A DNA stretch of 6,502 bases from a virus (Duplodnaviria > Heunggongvirae > Uroviricota > Caudoviricetes), in the IMG/VR virus record IMGVR_UViG_2711768006_000011. The stretch is one strand, 5' to 3'. The notes beneath the pieces are model-generated. The model worked only from the letters and a program-made list of their open reading frames with translations. It did not search any database and was not told where the DNA came from. The position numbers were made by a program, and so were the translations under genes. Positions 128-6,002 of this stretch are shown here, piece after piece. Within the stretch, counting starts at the first letter, position 1, and each line of letters starts with the position of its first letter.

Positions 128-525
128 GGATAGCGGTCATGTGATGCCGGTTTCCCGGTAACTCAGCACCGGTATCTGAGTCAACGTTTTCTCTACTGGG
201 TCATTTCCGATACGCCCTGCCTGCTGACAGGCTTTCATCACATCTGAAAATATAGCACCCTGACTGATACTGTAGTACCTAAGGTTCCAGAAACTGTGAT
301 GTATCCGGCACAGAAAAGCCCCTCCGGAGAGGGCTGGAGAGTGGCGCTATGTGCCATTGCATGATGCCGGGTGCCTCCCGGTGAATTCAGTACCAGCACC
401 TGAATCCGCGATTATCCCATATACCTACTCGCTGATTGCCCCTCCGCACAGGGGGATTCACCATGCCAGTTTCTTTTAACAAACTCCCCGCAAAACAGAC
501 AACTGTCAACCGTCTGAATTGTGAG

Positions 526-651
526 NNNNNNNNNNNNNNNNNNNNNNNNNNNNNNNNNNNNNNNNNNNNNNNNNNNNNNNNNNNNNNNNNNNNNNNNNNN
601 NNNNNNNNNNNNNNNNNNNNNNNNNNNNNNNNNNNNNNNNNNNNNNNNNNN
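526..651. other. Run of 126 N (assembly gap or masked sequence)
   Basis: Uninterrupted n characters at 526-651; truncates the tRNA at 652-704 and any ORF entering from either side. Confidence 1.
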
Positions 652-704
652 CCAGCGACCTGGCGATTATGAGTCGCTCGCTCTCACCACTGAGCTAAAG
701 GGCC
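652..704 (-). tRNA. tRNA with CAU anticodon, ileX-like (tRNA-Ile2 or Met); 3' part (T arm and acceptor 3' strand) lost in the N run
   Basis: Minus strand reads GGCCCTT-TA-GCTC-AGTGGTGA-GAGC-G-AGCGA-CTCATAA-TCGCC-AGGTC-GCTGG: acceptor 5' strand, D arm, anticodon arm with CAT at 34-36, variable loop and T-stem 5' strand. Closely resembles E. coli ileX as I recall it. The 5' end is 40 nt downstream of the methyltransferase stop. Confidence 0.8.
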
Positions 705-2375: not shown

Positions 2376-3197
2376 TTACCTAGTTACCTTTTTTAACTGC
2401 CGCTCAGCCCATGCTTCTTCAATATCAAACCGGGTCACCAGCGCATCATAAAATTTCTTAACTGTTTTTTCCCATGACGCGCGTGTTATCTGGTTTGTCA
2501 CCTCGCATATAGCATTAAATGCCTCCGTTGATGGTAGTCTTTCATAGCCACGACCACCACAACGCTGGCAGTCTCTGATAACAGGCATACCACGTTTTAC
2601 CGACTCTTCACGATGAATGGCGACACCACGCCCACGGCAATCCTTACAGGCGGTGGAAACCTCACCCTTTCCGCCACACTCCGGACAGGCAACTTTTACC
2701 ACCTCCCTGACTTTTTTCCATTCTTCCCAGTAAGACGGATACACACCTTTCGTACACTTTGCCCATACCGGCGGCTTACCATCCGGATACTGGATCTTGT
2801 TTGTAAAAACCTCGCTTTCAATAAATTTTTTTCCGTGACAGCAGGGGCACTGTTTTTTGCTCGCCGCGCTACGGGCATAATCTTCAAACGCATACGAAGC
2901 CATAATACGCATCACTGCCGGTTTTATTTCTGCCGGGAGTTTTCTTAACGCCGCCACGCGATCACACCGACTGAGTGCATATTCTGTCAGCAATTCTGTT
3001 GCCCGCTCTCTGTCATTCATACTAATGCCCATTTTCCCAAGGAACGCAGAAACCCCCATCTCAGCCCGATTCTGTGTCATGCCCTGCGCGGCCATCACAT
3101 CAGTGATACTCAGCGCATCTTTCGACGTTGAGGCCGATGCATCAGTCAGGCCGGGGGATTTTGGGGAGTAGTATTTCGGTAAATCTTCCAGTTTCAT
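2376..3197 (-). CDS. Q-like late-gene antitermination protein with four CxxC zinc-knuckle motifs
   Basis: 273-aa ORF. Motifs CPCCHGKK, CPECGGKG, CKDCRGRG and CQRCGGRG. Start ATG overlaps the rusA stop (ATGA). Sits immediately upstream of the promoter and terminator cassette and downstream of rusA, the canonical lambdoid position for Q. Family assignment from memory of quuQ-type proteins. Confidence 0.7.
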   Translation of the reverse strand: MKLEDLPKYYSPKSPGLTDASASTSKDALSITDVMAAQGMTQNRAEMGVSAFLGKMGISMNDRERATELLTEYALSRCDRVAALRKLPAEIKPAVMRIMASYAFEDYARSAASKKQCPCCHGKKFIESEVFTNKIQYPDGKPPVWAKCTKGVYPSYWEEWKKVREVVKVACPECGGKGEVSTACKDCRGRGVAIHREESVKRGMPVIRDCQRCGGRGYERLPSTEAFNAICEVTNQITRASWEKTVKKFYDALVTRFDIEEAWAERQLKKVTR

Positions 3198-4708: not shown

Positions 4709-4990
4709 TTATCCAGTGACGGTAGTCGAGGCTAAGGGCTTTTTTAACCTCGCATCCGCGCCTGCGGTAACACTGAATGAGCCATTCGGCCTGTTCTTCA
4801 GTGCATGGGGGATGCTGGTACCAATCAGATTTAAATGCGTGAGAGCGCCGCCCGTGCCTGCTGGCAAAGACGGCTGAATTATCAGAATTGTGTAGTCTGG
4901 AAGGCAGTGGCTGACAATAGCGCCATTCTCAACGCGCACAGTATAGAGGCCATCTTCACTAAAAATTTCACGTAATTCTTCGATTTTCAT
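4709..4990 (-). CDS. Hypothetical small prophage protein (93 aa from the ATG)
   Basis: ATG at 4990 preceded by GGAAGGA; the ORF tool starts one codon earlier at TTG 4993. N-terminal half (MKIEELREIFSEDGLYTVRVENGAIVSHC) looks protein-like; the C-terminal half is low complexity, so the 3' boundary is uncertain. Confidence 0.5.
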   Translation of the reverse strand: MKIEELREIFSEDGLYTVRVENGAIVSHCLPDYTILIIQPSLPAGTGGALTHLNLIGTSIPHALKNRPNGSFSVTAGADARLKKPLASTTVTG

Positions 4991-5072
4991 CAACAGAATC
5001 CTTCCAGATAAATAGCACTCCCCTGTTCGGGGTCCATCCCTCTTCTCCCTGCGCGCTACTTAAGTATTTTTG

Positions 5073-5102
5073 ATTCTATTCCGGCACCATCTAAAACTTC
5101 AA
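5073..5102 (-). promoter_or_regulatory. Candidate sigma70 promoter for the 93-aa / DUF968 / rusA / Q gene string
   Basis: Minus strand TTGAAG (5097-5102), 18-bp spacer, TAGAAT (5073-5078), located between the hok terminator and the 93-aa ORF. By-eye match only. Confidence 0.3.
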
Positions 5103-5110
5103 ACGCGTTG

Positions 5111-5142
5111 AAAATAAAAACAAAAACCCGCCGAAGCGGGTT
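5111..5142 (-). terminator. Rho-independent terminator with UUCG tetraloop, 3' of hok
   Basis: Minus-strand RNA AACCCGC-UUCG-GCGGGUU followed by UUUGUUUUUAUUUUC. Confidence 0.85.
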
Positions 5143-5210
5143 AAGTGTGGGTGCATTGAGGATGCCTGCCCCATCAGAGGTGGCGAGGGATTTCTCCCCC
5201 GCCTGGTCTC

Positions 5211-5366
5211 TTACTCCTCAGGTTCGTAAGCTGTGAAGACAGCGACCTCCGTCTGGCCGGTTCGAATTCGTACCTCGCAGAGGTCTTTCCTCGTTACCAG
5301 TGCCGTCACTATGACGGTTAAACAGATGACGATCAGGGCGATTAACATCGCCTTTTGCTGCTTCAT
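5211..5366 (-). CDS. hokD: Hok/Gef-family type I toxin (HokD/RelF-like), 51 aa
   Basis: MKQQKAMLIALIVICLTVIVTALVTRKDLCEVRIRTGQTEVAVFTAYEPEE has the hydrophobic helix plus conserved RKDLCEV..R.G..EVA.F.AYE core. ATG at 5366 is preceded by AAGGAG at 9 nt. The tool frame extends in frame to ATG 5423 (70 aa), which I treat as an upstream in-frame extension, not the toxin start. Confidence 0.9.
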   Translation of the reverse strand: MKQQKAMLIALIVICLTVIVTALVTRKDLCEVRIRTGQTEVAVFTAYEPEE

Positions 5367-5542
5367 AGCCTGCTTCTCCTTGCCTTTCGGCACGTAAGAG
5401 GCTAACCTAGATTTGCCGTTCATAGATTGAGCCTCAGATTAATGTTAAGCGTCTTGCCGGACGCGTAATGTTAACTGGGGCTTTTCTCTATCTGCCTTTT
5501 GGTGTTCATGCCTGAGACAGATAGCCTCAAGCACCCGCTGCA

Positions 5543-5570
5543 ATTCTACTTAACTCTCCTTTTCCCGCAA
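5543..5570 (-). promoter_or_regulatory. Candidate promoter for the hok mRNA (-35 TTGCGG, 16-bp spacer, -10 TAGAAT)
   Basis: Minus strand TTGCGG (5565-5570), 16 bp, TAGAAT (5543-5548); would give a leader of about 170 nt before the hok start. By-eye match only. Confidence 0.3.
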
Positions 5571-5657
5571 ACCGTTTTTATCCCCAGCGGCAAATCGAAT
5601 ACACCACCAGCGCCACCGCCATCGCAATTCCTACCGTTGTTAATGCTTCAGGCCAGG

Positions 5658-6002
5658 TCATCGTAAAATATCCTCCACGCTTATCAGTCCGTTCCGCTCC
5701 AGATAACTCATCGCCTTATCCGGTAATTTGCAGTCTGGCTTCGCTTTCCTCAGTTGCCAGGTTAACTGCTTTACCAGCATGGTTAACTCATCGACCAGAC
5801 GCTGATATCCCACTGGTTTGTATTCATGCAATTTACCGGCTGGCTCTGCTGCCAGCGATACCAGTGCGATTTCCAGAACAGCAATATCCATCTTATATGT
5901 GCGGATGATGTCATGGTCGATTGTGCCCGGTATGCACAGTCTCTGTGCTTCAATAGTCTCCTCTGCGTGAGCTATTAACTGCTCTCTGGTAAAAGTCGTC
6001 AT
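5658..6002 (-). CDS. Hypothetical prophage protein, 114 aa; paralogous in its N-terminal half to the upstream 55-aa gene
   Basis: ATG at 6002 overlaps the upstream stop (ATGA). Begins MTTFTRE and contains [16 protein letters not shown], paralleling MTTITKE and [16 protein letters not shown] in the neighbour. Confidence 0.6.

What the first reader, a model, noticed from the sequence alone, without database searches (positions are those of the whole stretch)
5111..5570. hok-type type I toxin locus whose antisense partner is unresolved
A full-length Hok/Gef-like toxin with strong Shine-Dalgarno, an in-frame upstream extension, a leader of about 170 nt after a candidate promoter, and a UUCG-loop terminator is present. 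Hok loci normally need a cis-encoded Sok antisense RNA (plus-strand here, around 5370-5480). I could not identify a convincing plus-strand promoter and terminator for it by eye, so the toxin may be unregulated, decayed, or controlled differently.
Basis: partly seen in the sequence, partly recalled or inferred. Interest (0 to 1): 0.5.

Follow-up and report, generated by a model that had tools for sequence, protein, structure and literature searches.

The report
Intact prophage hok/mok/sok toxin–antitoxin locus
This is an ordinary, complete copy of the well-known hok/sok toxin–antisense RNA module carried by lambda-like prophages of E. coli; the "missing" Sok antisense gene is present on the opposite strand with weak-looking signals that match an experimentally tested relative.

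Summary
They are a 51-aa Hok toxin (5211-5366, minus strand; Pfam HOK_GEF E=1.2e-23; 100% identical to E. coli K-12 HokD), an in-frame 70-aa mok extension, a 170-nt leader, a TTGCGG-16-TAGAAT promoter and a UUCG-loop terminator.

The Sok gene sits on the plus strand:
- -35 TTGCCT (5380-5385), a 17-nt spacer, -10 TAACCT (5403-5408).
- Start at about G5415.
- A long hairpin (5429-5483) followed by UUUUCUCUAU, ending at 5485-5491.

The promoter stretch is base-for-base identical to sokW of phages 933W and Sp5. There, mutating exactly this -10 hexamer abolished antitoxin activity, and the RNA was seen on northern blots (PMC8621323). The hairpin shows compensatory changes across relatives.

All other hallmarks of hok mRNA are present: tac, ucb, the mok Shine-Dalgarno sequence, dcb, and fbi pairing between the 5' and 3' ends.

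Rfam's "sok" model actually matches the hok mRNA strand, so it cannot locate Sok.

This exact Sok allele occurs in about 30% of complete E. coli genomes, so the locus is already known.

One side observation may be worth following. Among near-identical loci, variation is concentrated in the Sok 5' tail and its target loop.

The parts
5565..5570 (-). hok/mok promoter -35 (TTGCGG)
   Evidence: Read. It lies 16 nt upstream of the -10. It matches only 3 of 6 consensus positions, so the generic scan missed it. This stretch varies among relatives.
5543..5548 (-). hok/mok promoter -10 (TAGAAT)
   Evidence: Read. It lies 7 nt upstream of G5536. It is nearly invariant in 63 distinct relatives (entropy 0-0.3 bits).
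5121..5536 (-). Full-length mok-hok mRNA, about 416 nt
   Evidence: The 5' end is set by the start of the full-length RF01794 match (5536..5361, 112.4 bits). The 3' end is set by the intrinsic terminator. The fold is -168.8 kcal/mol, z=-7.3, with the 5' and 3' ends paired.
5525..5536 (-). tac, the 5' translational activator element (GGGUGCUUGAGG)
   Evidence: It pairs with fbi in the full-length fold. It pairs with ucb (AAGCCCC, 5483-5477) in the Rfam consensus structure. It refolds locally when the 3' end is removed.
5477..5483 (-). ucb, the anti-Shine-Dalgarno box (AAGCCCC)
   Evidence: It is paired with tac in the RF01794 consensus structure. GCCCCAG is complementary to the mok Shine-Dalgarno region CUGAGGC (read). 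The role is taken from the R1 model described in PMC9841398.
5432..5435 (-). mok Shine-Dalgarno sequence (GAGG)
   Evidence: It lies 8 nt upstream of the mok ATG. It lies inside the region complementary to Sok.
5211..5423 (-). mok ORF, 70 aa, in frame with hok and sharing its stop codon
   Evidence: It has the same layout as the annotated mokW of 933W and mokC of K-12. It matches PHROG 251 'MokW-like host killing' at 7.7e-33. The 57-nt in-frame offset is shared by most relatives.
5397..5436 (-). Sok-target hairpin (mok Shine-Dalgarno/dcb stem, with the mok AUG and an apical loop ACGGCAAA)
   Evidence: It folds at -14.7 kcal/mol. It has the same shape in the Rfam consensus and in all 15 allelic variants.
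5211..5366 (-). hok toxin ORF, 51 aa (equals HokD)
   Evidence: Pfam HOK_GEF E=1.2e-23. It is 51/51 identical to K-12 HokD.
5149..5161 (-). fbi, the fold-back inhibitory element (CCUCAAUGCACCC)
   Evidence: It forms 12 bp plus a 1-nt bulge with tac. It lies at a fixed distance of about 49 nt after the stop codon in relatives. Compensatory changes are seen in Kluyvera, Photorhabdus and Pantoea.
5115..5142 (-). hok mRNA intrinsic terminator (7-bp stem, UUCG loop, U-run)
   Evidence: It is identical in K-12 Qin hokD.
5380..5385 (+). sok promoter -35 (TTGCCT); overlaps the hok Shine-Dalgarno sequence on the other strand
   Evidence: It is homologous to 933W and K-12. TTGCCT or TTGACC is found at about 17 nt from the -10 across roughly 130 loci (17 or 18 nt depending on register). 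It lies within the 30 nt identical to Sp5.
5403..5408 (+). sok promoter -10 (TAACCT)
   Evidence: It is identical to Sp5/933W. Exactly this hexamer was mutated in the 'pro-less' construct of PMC8621323, which lost antitoxin activity.
5415..5491 (+). Sok antisense RNA, about 71-77 nt: a 14-nt single-stranded 5' tail, a long hairpin (5429-5483) and a U-rich 3' end
   Evidence: The start is homologous to the annotated starts of sokW and sokC. The 3' end follows the sokW annotation (5485) or the sokC annotation (5491). The fold is -32.9 kcal/mol, z=-5.5, against -22.9 for the complementary strand. Across 39 distinct relatives, 92% of cells are paired, 9 pairs show double changes, and 0 of 500 shuffles reach the observed value.

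Best explanation
This is a complete, canonical hok/mok/sok type I toxin-antitoxin module of the hokD/hokW (Gef-like) subgroup. It lies in the nin-to-Q region of a lambdoid prophage.

Proposed mechanism, step by step:
1. The minus strand gives a stable mok-hok mRNA of about 416 nt. Its 5' end (tac) pairs with its 3' end (fbi). This keeps the mok ribosome-binding site sequestered, so the full-length RNA is neither translated nor bound by Sok.
2. Slow 3' trimming removes fbi. tac then pairs with ucb. The mok Shine-Dalgarno sequence and AUG are displayed on a hairpin, and mok translation would carry ribosomes into hok.
3. The plus strand constitutively makes a short, unstable Sok RNA from TTGCCT-17-TAACCT, starting near G5415. 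Its 14-nt single-stranded 5' tail pairs with the loop and AUG region of that hairpin. It then forms a full duplex over the mok translation start. This blocks mok translation, and therefore hok translation, and marks the RNA for RNase III.
4. When sok transcription stops, Sok decays first and Hok, an inner-membrane toxin, is made. Transcription could stop through loss of the element, a transcription shut-off, or prophage induction.

What is shown here: all the sequence elements, their complementarity, their conservation and covariation, and identity of the sok promoter to a tested one.

What is inferred from the R1 and Sp5 work: RNA half-lives, 3' processing, RNase III cleavage, toxicity in this host, and the trigger.
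For: - Hok family membership and identity to HokD.
- A full-length hok-leader covariance match of 112 bits.
- 5'/3' closure of the mRNA, local refolding once the 3' end is removed, and tac/fbi covariation across genera.
- mok has the same layout as the annotated mokW and mokC.
- Sok maps onto the annotated sokW and sokC.
- The promoter hexamers and their roughly 17-nt spacing are conserved in about 130 loci.
- 30 nt of the promoter are identical to Sp5, where the -10 mutation abolished antitoxin activity, trans sokW partly rescued, and northern blots showed sokW (PMC8621323).
- The Sok hairpin is 10 kcal/mol more stable on the Sok strand, and its near-invariant G-U pairs would be A-C mismatches on the hok strand.
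- The same 48-nt sok allele is present at 99% identity or more in 1,619 of 5,426 complete E. coli genomes, so it is maintained.
- The R1 mechanism is as summarised in PMC9841398.
Against: - There are no expression data for this particular locus.
- Both sok promoter hexamers are weak by consensus (7 of 12 positions), and the Sok hairpin is followed by only four U's, so generic scans do not call them.
- Conservation of the hexamers cannot be credited to promoter function alone. The same bases also encode Mok, the hok Shine-Dalgarno sequence and dcb.
- The -10 mutation in Sp5 also changes the hok mRNA.
- According to the introduction of bioRxiv 10.1101/2025.08.07.668861, chromosomal hokA, hokB and hokC loci did not mediate post-segregational killing. 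Presence of all parts therefore does not prove killing activity.
- The minimum-free-energy fold of the truncated RNA shows a local tac hairpin rather than the tac/ucb stem.
Confidence: 0.9

Rival explanations
1. One reading: the toxin has lost its antisense partner, so it is unregulated, decayed, or controlled by something else. K-12 Qin hokD is an example of this state.
For: The generic consensus scan finds no plus-strand promoter or terminator. A genuinely decayed relative exists: K-12 hokD shares only the part from the hok Shine-Dalgarno sequence onward.
Against: The window keeps the whole leader and the sok region. It is identical to tested sokW from -35 through -10 and onward through the Sok hairpin from 5421; only the start region and the first 9 nt of the Sok 5' tail differ. 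It has a full-length hok-leader structure match and an intact mok. The Sok hairpin is intact and covaries.
Confidence: 0.03
2. The module is intact, but its role is not classical post-segregational killing. On prophage induction Sok disappears and Hok helps lyse the cell and release phage, as reported for hokW-sokW of Sp5.

A possible route here is my own inference. hok is co-oriented with the flanking early-right genes, so induced read-through from the early promoter would run head-on into sok transcription and also produce excess complementary RNA.
For: PMC8621323 reports that sokW RNA vanishes after mitomycin C in a RecA-dependent way, that HokW appears, and that phage release halves without the locus. 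All flanking genes in the window (a 114-aa ORF, a Rem-like ORF, DUF968/HNH, RusA, Q) are on the same strand as hok.
Against: In Sp5/933W the locus sits in a different part of the phage genome, near the right end, so the context is not the same. The interference mechanism is untested. This rival concerns the biological role and is compatible with the molecular mechanism given as the best explanation.
Confidence: 0.35
3. The module is intact and acts mainly as an addiction or abortive-infection device. It kills cells that lose the prophage region, or cells whose transcription is shut off by an infecting lytic phage, as reported for R1 hok/sok against T4.
For: The unstable-antitoxin/stable-mRNA logic is established for R1. 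[quoted passage not shown]
Against: That same preprint found no enrichment of hok near defence systems, and it relays that chromosomal hok loci failed to give post-segregational killing. Nothing in the window tests this.
Confidence: 0.3

Closest known systems
hokW/mokW/sokW of Stx2 phages 933W (AF125520) and Sp5/VT2-Sakai (AP000363)
   Same: - 92.7% DNA identity over 462 nt.
- Same mok in-frame layout.
- The sok promoter from -35 to -10 and the Sok hairpin are identical.
- tac and fbi are the same apart from one bulged base.
[quoted passage not shown]
   Different: - The Sok 5' tail and target loop differ: GCCGUUCAUAG against GUUCAGCAUGG. The predicted tail-target pairing across alleles is -4.1 kcal/mol, against -21.0 for the cognate pair.
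- Mok residues 2-5 differ: NGKS against LNTC.
- The toxin C-terminus differs...FTAYEPEE against ...FVDYESEK.
- The sequence after fbi, including the terminator, differs.
- The position in the phage genome differs: nin-Q region here, near the right end in 933W.
hokD (relF) of the E. coli K-12 cryptic prophage Qin
   Same: - The toxin is 100% identical.
- The coding region, 3' UTR, fbi and UUCG terminator are nearly identical.
- The downstream neighbours are the same: rem, ydfU/DUF968, then a Q-like antiterminator. The window additionally has RusA between DUF968 and Q.
   Different: In K-12, similarity ends at the hok Shine-Dalgarno sequence. tac, ucb, the mok start, the Sok-coding region and the sok -10 are absent, and relBE lies upstream instead. 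The window is the intact form of that locus.
hokC (gef)/mokC/sokC of the E. coli chromosome
   Same: Same architecture, with mok in frame with hok and a curated sokC on the opposite strand. The Rfam leader match is 118 bits. tac is the same and the Sok terminator base and tail (GGGGCUUUUCUCUAU) are conserved.
   Different: The Sok hairpin is shorter: the RNA is 59 nt, against about 77 nt. The promoter hexamers differ (TTGACC and ACTCTA-type). The toxin is 82% identical.
hok/mok/sok (parB) of plasmid R1, the family archetype
   Same: It shares the Hok fold family, an overlapping mok, the antisense placed over the mok start, tac/fbi end pairing, and a leader of about 170 nt.
   Different: DNA similarity is low outside short motifs. 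HokW is reported as 44% identical to R1 Hok (PMC8621323). It is plasmid-borne, and the Rfam score is lower at 87 bits.

Membership tests
hok/mok/sok type I toxin-antitoxin family | A small (about 50 aa) hydrophobic toxin of the Hok/Gef family | tested here: met
   PF01848 at 82.9 bits, E=1.2e-23, full profile coverage. It is 100% identical to K-12 HokD.
hok/mok/sok type I toxin-antitoxin family | A mok reading frame that starts upstream, overlaps hok, and whose start region is the antisense target | tested here: met
   A 70-aa ORF at 5211-5423 with the Shine-Dalgarno sequence GAGG 8 nt upstream. The layout matches the annotated mokW and mokC. PHROG 251 matches at 7.7e-33. The mok AUG and Shine-Dalgarno sequence lie within the Sok-complementary stretch 5415-5491.
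hok/mok/sok type I toxin-antitoxin family | A cis-encoded antisense Sok gene with its own promoter and terminator on the opposite strand | tested here: met
   Shown by homology to the annotated sokW and sokC, promoter conservation, identity to the mutated and tested Sp5 promoter, and a stable, covarying hairpin with a U-rich tail. Actual transcription was not observed here.
hok/mok/sok type I toxin-antitoxin family | The conserved hok mRNA leader structure (tac/ucb stem, long hairpin, mok Shine-Dalgarno/dcb target hairpin) | tested here: met
   RF01794 matches at 112.4 bits (gathering score 59) over model positions 1-157 of 157, on the hok strand.
hok/mok/sok type I toxin-antitoxin family | Long-range 5'-3' pairing (tac/fbi) that locks the full-length mRNA | tested here: met
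   12 bp plus one bulge between 5536-5525 and 5161-5149, present in the minimum-free-energy and centroid folds. Compensatory changes are seen in other genera at the same distance from the stop codon.
hok/mok/sok type I toxin-antitoxin family | 3' exonucleolytic processing, refolding to a translatable form, and RNase III cleavage of the Sok duplex | not testable with these tools
   These are known for R1 (PMC9841398) and partly for Sp5 (PMC8621323). Removing the 3' end in silico frees tac, but the predicted fold is not the published tac/ucb stem.
hok/mok/sok type I toxin-antitoxin family | Toxicity of the peptide and its neutralisation by Sok | not testable with these tools
   HokD, which has the identical sequence, is listed among the toxic controls in bioRxiv 10.1101/2025.08.07.668861. 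Neutralisation by SokW is shown for the Sp5 relative.
Decayed hokD (relF) type as in K-12 Qin | A toxin gene retained but the leader, the mok start and sok lost | tested here: not met
   The alignment with K-12 shows the window keeps about 160 nt of leader and the sok region that K-12 lacks.
Rfam RF01794 'sok antitoxin' taken as an antisense RNA family | The match lies on the strand of the antisense RNA | tested here: not met
   The match lies on the hok strand in the window. The same is true in K-12, where the curated sokC is on the other strand, and in 933W and an R1-type plasmid. The model runs from hok mRNA +1 to the hok AUG.

The most novel reading that the evidence does not exclude
Among otherwise almost identical prophage hokD/hokW loci, variation is concentrated in about 20 nt (5409-5430). 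That stretch forms the single-stranded 5' tail of Sok, the apical loop of its target hairpin, and Mok codons 2-5. At least 11 tail alleles exist, and the hairpin shape is kept in all of them. Predicted cognate pairing is about -20 kcal/mol, against about -8 on average for non-cognate pairs. Copies in the same genome usually carry different alleles.

The reading that the evidence does not exclude is diversifying selection for mutually insulated Sok specificities. Under that reading, each of several co-resident prophages keeps its own private antidote, and the window carries one such allele that would not be served by SokW.
Probability: 0.4. Interest if true: 0.45.

Novelty: already known. Interest (0 to 1): 0.15.

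Why it matters
For the finding as posed, it matters little. The locus is a textbook hok/mok/sok module, and its Sok gene is simply hard to see by consensus. Three practical points follow.

1. Sok and mok are not annotated under this locus in RefSeq E. coli genomes (one search lists no features), so readers and pipelines will keep reporting "orphan" Hok toxins.
2. The Rfam family named "sok" marks the sense strand, so using it to place the antitoxin gives the wrong strand.
3. The window shows what K-12's truncated hokD looked like before relBE replaced its control region.

If the allele diversity of the Sok tail reflects selected orthogonality, it would be a natural example of insulated RNA antidotes among competing prophages, and a source of orthogonal antisense pairs.

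Tried and rejected
- The generic sigma-70 and terminator scan of 5000-5700 found only the hok terminator and an unrelated minus-strand site at 5102-5073. It found nothing for sok. I rejected this as evidence of absence once homology was established.
- I considered using the Rfam 'sok' hit as direct detection of the antisense RNA. I rejected this because the hit lies on the hok strand in every reference locus.
- I first recalled R1 mok as being out of frame with hok. The R1-type locus fetched here has mok in frame, so I dropped that supposed difference.
- I looked for published statements on Sok-tail allele diversity or cross-talk among prophage hok loci and found none in the papers I could read. 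Pedersen & Gerdes 1999 and Steif & Meyer 2012 are not in the library, so priority cannot be excluded.
- The outermost 5-bp helix in the Sok fold (AUAGA/UCUAU) was left out of the structure test, because it would lie beyond the annotated 3' end of sokW.
- Searches (a search with a model that did not exist; a faulty pattern; input errors) produced nothing.
- The large protein-database, structure-prediction and metagenome searches were not used, because the identity of the locus was settled without them.

Full report
**Observation.**
- A 51-aa ORF at 5211-5366 is a full-length Hok/Gef family member (PF01848, 82.9 bits, E=1.2e-23). It is 51/51 identical to HokD of E. coli K-12.
- AGGAG lies 9 nt upstream of its ATG.
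- An in-frame ATG at 5423-5421 extends the frame to 70 aa.
- A 7-bp stem with a UUCG loop followed by a U-run lies at 5142-5115.
- TTGCGG-16-TAGAAT lies at 5570-5543, 7 nt before G5536. The leader is therefore 170 nt, the same length as in relatives.
- A covariance-model scan gives a full-length match of 112.4 bits, E=9.5e-26, at 5536..5361.

**What the Rfam hit means.** The matching family is called 'sok antitoxin' (RF01794), but the match is on the hok strand. Its consensus starts with the hok mRNA 5' end (GGGUGCUUGAGG) and ends at the hok AUG. The same orientation is found in three reference loci. One is K-12 hokC, where the curated sokC (L003 553-611, plus strand) lies opposite the Rfam match (502-654, minus strand). 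The others are phage 933W and an R1-type IncFII plasmid. The model is therefore a model of the hok mRNA leader. It shows that the leader is intact, but it does not locate Sok.

**Finding Sok.**
- Phage 933W carries annotated mokW, hokW and sokW, and K-12 carries annotated mokC, hokC and sokC.
- The annotated sokW aligns to window 5421-5485 with one mismatch, and the sequence upstream of it is shared. It reads CCTTGCCTTTCGGCACGTAAGAGGCTAACCTA in both. This gives -35 TTGCCT (5380-5385), a 17-nt spacer and -10 TAACCT (5403-5408). The annotated start corresponds to G5415.
- Sp5 (VT2-Sakai) is identical to 933W over the whole 461-nt match. Takada et al. [quoted passage not shown]
- Their hokW probe YO-597 is a 30-mer that matches window 5378-5407 exactly.
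- Their 'pro-less' mutagenic primer YO-421 changes the hok-strand TAGGTTAG to CCGGCTCG. On the sok strand that turns TAACCT into GAGCCG.
- That construct lost protection against HokW and was partly rescued by sokW in trans. Northern blots detected sokW RNA.
- The window therefore has the same promoter that was tested experimentally.

**Why it was missed.** The promoter matches only 7 of 12 consensus positions. The hairpin is long and imperfect and is followed by only four U's.

**Sok structure.**
- The 77-nt plus-strand RNA 5415-5491 folds into a 14-nt free 5' tail and a long hairpin (5429-5483), followed by UUUCUCUAU. The energy is -32.9 kcal/mol, z=-5.5.
- The complementary hok-strand segment reaches only -22.9 kcal/mol.
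- In an alignment of 39 distinct Sok regions from Escherichia, Shigella, Kluyvera, Photorhabdus, Pantoea, Erwinia and others, 92.3% of cells pair. With slid partners the figure is 33-50%.
- Nine pairs show changes on both sides, and 0 of 500 shuffles reach the observed values.
- Several pairs are invariant or nearly invariant U-G or G-U on the Sok strand, for example columns 22-66, which are U-G in 39 of 39 sequences. These would be mismatches on the hok strand. At least part of the constraint therefore acts on Sok itself (inference).
- Across about 130 fetched loci, the -35 is TTGCCT or TTGACC and the -10 is TAACCT or TAATCT in most, with a spacer of about 17 nt (17 or 18 nt depending on register).
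- Caveat: these bases also encode Mok, the hok Shine-Dalgarno sequence and dcb, so their conservation has several causes.

**The rest of the hok machinery.**
- The full-length mRNA (5536-5121) folds with its 5' GGGUGCUUGAGG paired to CCUCAAUGCACCC at 5161-5149. The energy is -168.8 kcal/mol, z=-7.3.
- Relatives have this complement at a fixed distance of about 49 nt after the stop codon, with compensatory changes. Examples are GGGTGCTTGAGA/TCTCAACGCACCC in Kluyvera, GGGCGCTTGAGA/TCTCAAGCGCCC in Photorhabdus, and GGGCGCTTGAGG/CCTTAAGCGCCC in Pantoea.
- Deleting the 3' end frees the 5' end, which refolds locally.
- In the Rfam consensus structure, tac pairs with AAGCCCC (5483-5477). The mok Shine-Dalgarno sequence GAGGC pairs with AGCCUC (5403-5398) to form the target hairpin.
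- This matches the tac/ucb and Shine-Dalgarno/dcb stems of the translatable R1 form described in PMC9841398.

**Context.**
- The flanking minus-strand genes are a Q-like antiterminator, RusA, a DUF968/HNH protein and a Rem-like ORF downstream of hok, with nin-region ORFs upstream.
- This is the arrangement of K-12 Qin (hokD, rem, ydfU, ydfT), except that the window also has RusA.
- The window aligns almost perfectly with Qin from the hok Shine-Dalgarno sequence through the terminator. Upstream there is no similarity, and K-12 has relBE there.
- The window is therefore the intact counterpart of the truncated K-12 hokD locus.
- The locus is common. 3,824 of 5,426 complete E. coli genomes have a match covering at least 80% of a 521-nt query, with a median of 2 and up to 10 matching places per genome that has any match.
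- The window's exact 48-nt sok allele is present at 99% identity or more in 1,619 genomes.
- An IMG/VR contig (L131) is 100% identical over 490 nt.

**Mechanism.** The best-supported mechanism is the classical one:
1. A stable mRNA is locked by pairing of its two ends.
2. Slow 3' trimming unlocks it.
3. hok translation is coupled to mok translation.
4. A short-lived Sok uses its 5' tail to seize the target loop and then covers the mok start.
5. RNase III cleaves the duplex.
6. The toxin is produced once sok transcription ceases.

Shown here are the parts and their pairing potential. RNA lifetimes, processing, cleavage and the trigger are inferred from R1 and Sp5. The biological role remains open. 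It could be lysis help on induction as in Sp5, addiction, or abortive infection.

**Side observation.**
- Among 63 distinct relatives at 90% identity or more, per-site entropy is near zero through most of the transcript. Scattered single sites reach about 1 bit, and one site in the 3' UTR (5204) reaches 1.8 bits. Only at 5409-5430 does entropy stay high over a run of bases, reaching 1.5-1.8 bits at 5417-5420.
- This patch is the Sok 5' tail, the target loop and Mok codons 2-5. The mok AUG within it is invariant.
- Fifteen distinct target hairpins all fold into the same shape, at -11.5 to -15.5 kcal/mol.
- For the 11 tail alleles, predicted tail-target duplexes are about -20 kcal/mol for cognate pairs and -8 on average for non-cognate pairs. 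One near-identical pair reaches -19.2.
- The window's tail scores -21.0 with its own target, -4.1 with the SokW-type target, and no better than -9.1 with any other allele.
- Co-resident copies usually carry different alleles. Three different alleles occur in Shigella flexneri SFBU1023, and three to four in several Photorhabdus genomes. There is one exception.
- This is compatible with selection for private Sok specificities. Relaxed constraint on a loop and recombination between old alleles are not excluded.
- I found no discussion of this in the papers I could read.

**Verdict.** The locus is an already known kind and an already known sequence.

Noticed in passing
window 5361-5536 (-); L003 502-654; L002 1723-1897; L004 232-403: Rfam RF01794, named 'sok antitoxin (CssrC)', matches the hok mRNA strand from +1 to the hok AUG. 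In K-12 the match lies opposite the curated sokC. An annotation pipeline that trusts the name would put the antitoxin on the wrong strand.
   Followed up: yes
window 5409-5430: This is a hot spot of variation among otherwise near-identical loci. It covers the Sok 5' tail, the target loop and Mok codons 2-5. There are at least 11 tail alleles with a conserved hairpin shape. Predicted cross-pairing is weak, and co-resident copies usually differ.
   Followed up: partly
window 306-495 (-): A full-length match to Rfam RF02076 (sRNA STnc100), 123.6 bits, E=1.3e-27. It lies downstream of a DNA methyltransferase gene (745-1803) and a Q-like antiterminator (2376-3197) on the same strand.
   Followed up: no
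window 5225-5228 (-), Hok codon Tyr47: The Tyr47 codon UAC sits in GCUUACGAA. The introduction of bioRxiv 10.1101/2025.08.07.668861 says that hokC, hokD and hokE mRNAs undergo A-to-I editing that recodes this tyrosine to cysteine, as TadA does in hokB. The motif is invariant in relatives.
   Followed up: no
window 5578-5661 (-): A 27-aa hydrophobic ORF ([27 protein letters not shown]). Its ATG overlaps the stop codon of the upstream 114-aa ORF (ATGA), and it ends just before the hok promoter. It has no Pfam or PHROG match. A forward cloning primer of PMC8621323 (YO-432) begins at the homologous ATG in Sp5.
   Followed up: no
window 4709-4993 (-): A Rem-like ORF downstream of hok matches PHROG 340 only over its first 30 residues. 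The corresponding gene in E. coli Ch1 and K-12 is an 83-aa rem. It may be diverged or frameshifted here.
   Followed up: no
K-12 L139 4120-4450 compared with window 5380: The breakpoint of the K-12 Qin hokD truncation falls exactly at the hok Shine-Dalgarno sequence, which overlaps the sok -35. K-12 reads ACAGGAGAAG where the window reads CAAGGAGAAG.
   Followed up: yes
E. coli genome hits H64-H68 and 1,627 more: RefSeq lists no annotated feature under the sok/mok-start segment in the records shown. Only the toxin is annotated, as hokD.
   Followed up: partly
L019 (Acinetobacter idrijaensis, 275-nt contig), L024 (Xanthomonas pisi, 431-nt contig), L057 (a MAG), H23 (Actinobacillus phage vB_Apl-pPE4): Near-identical E. 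coli-type hokD sequences appear in records of unrelated taxa, mostly on tiny contigs. This looks like contamination or misassignment.
   Followed up: no
L078/L059/L114-type loci (Sok tail GUCGCAUAGAUA): One common allele is 2 nt shorter in the target loop, so no in-frame mok of 50 aa or more was found. If these loci are active, mok translation would need to reach only the hok start region, as PMC9841398 argues for R1.
   Followed up: no
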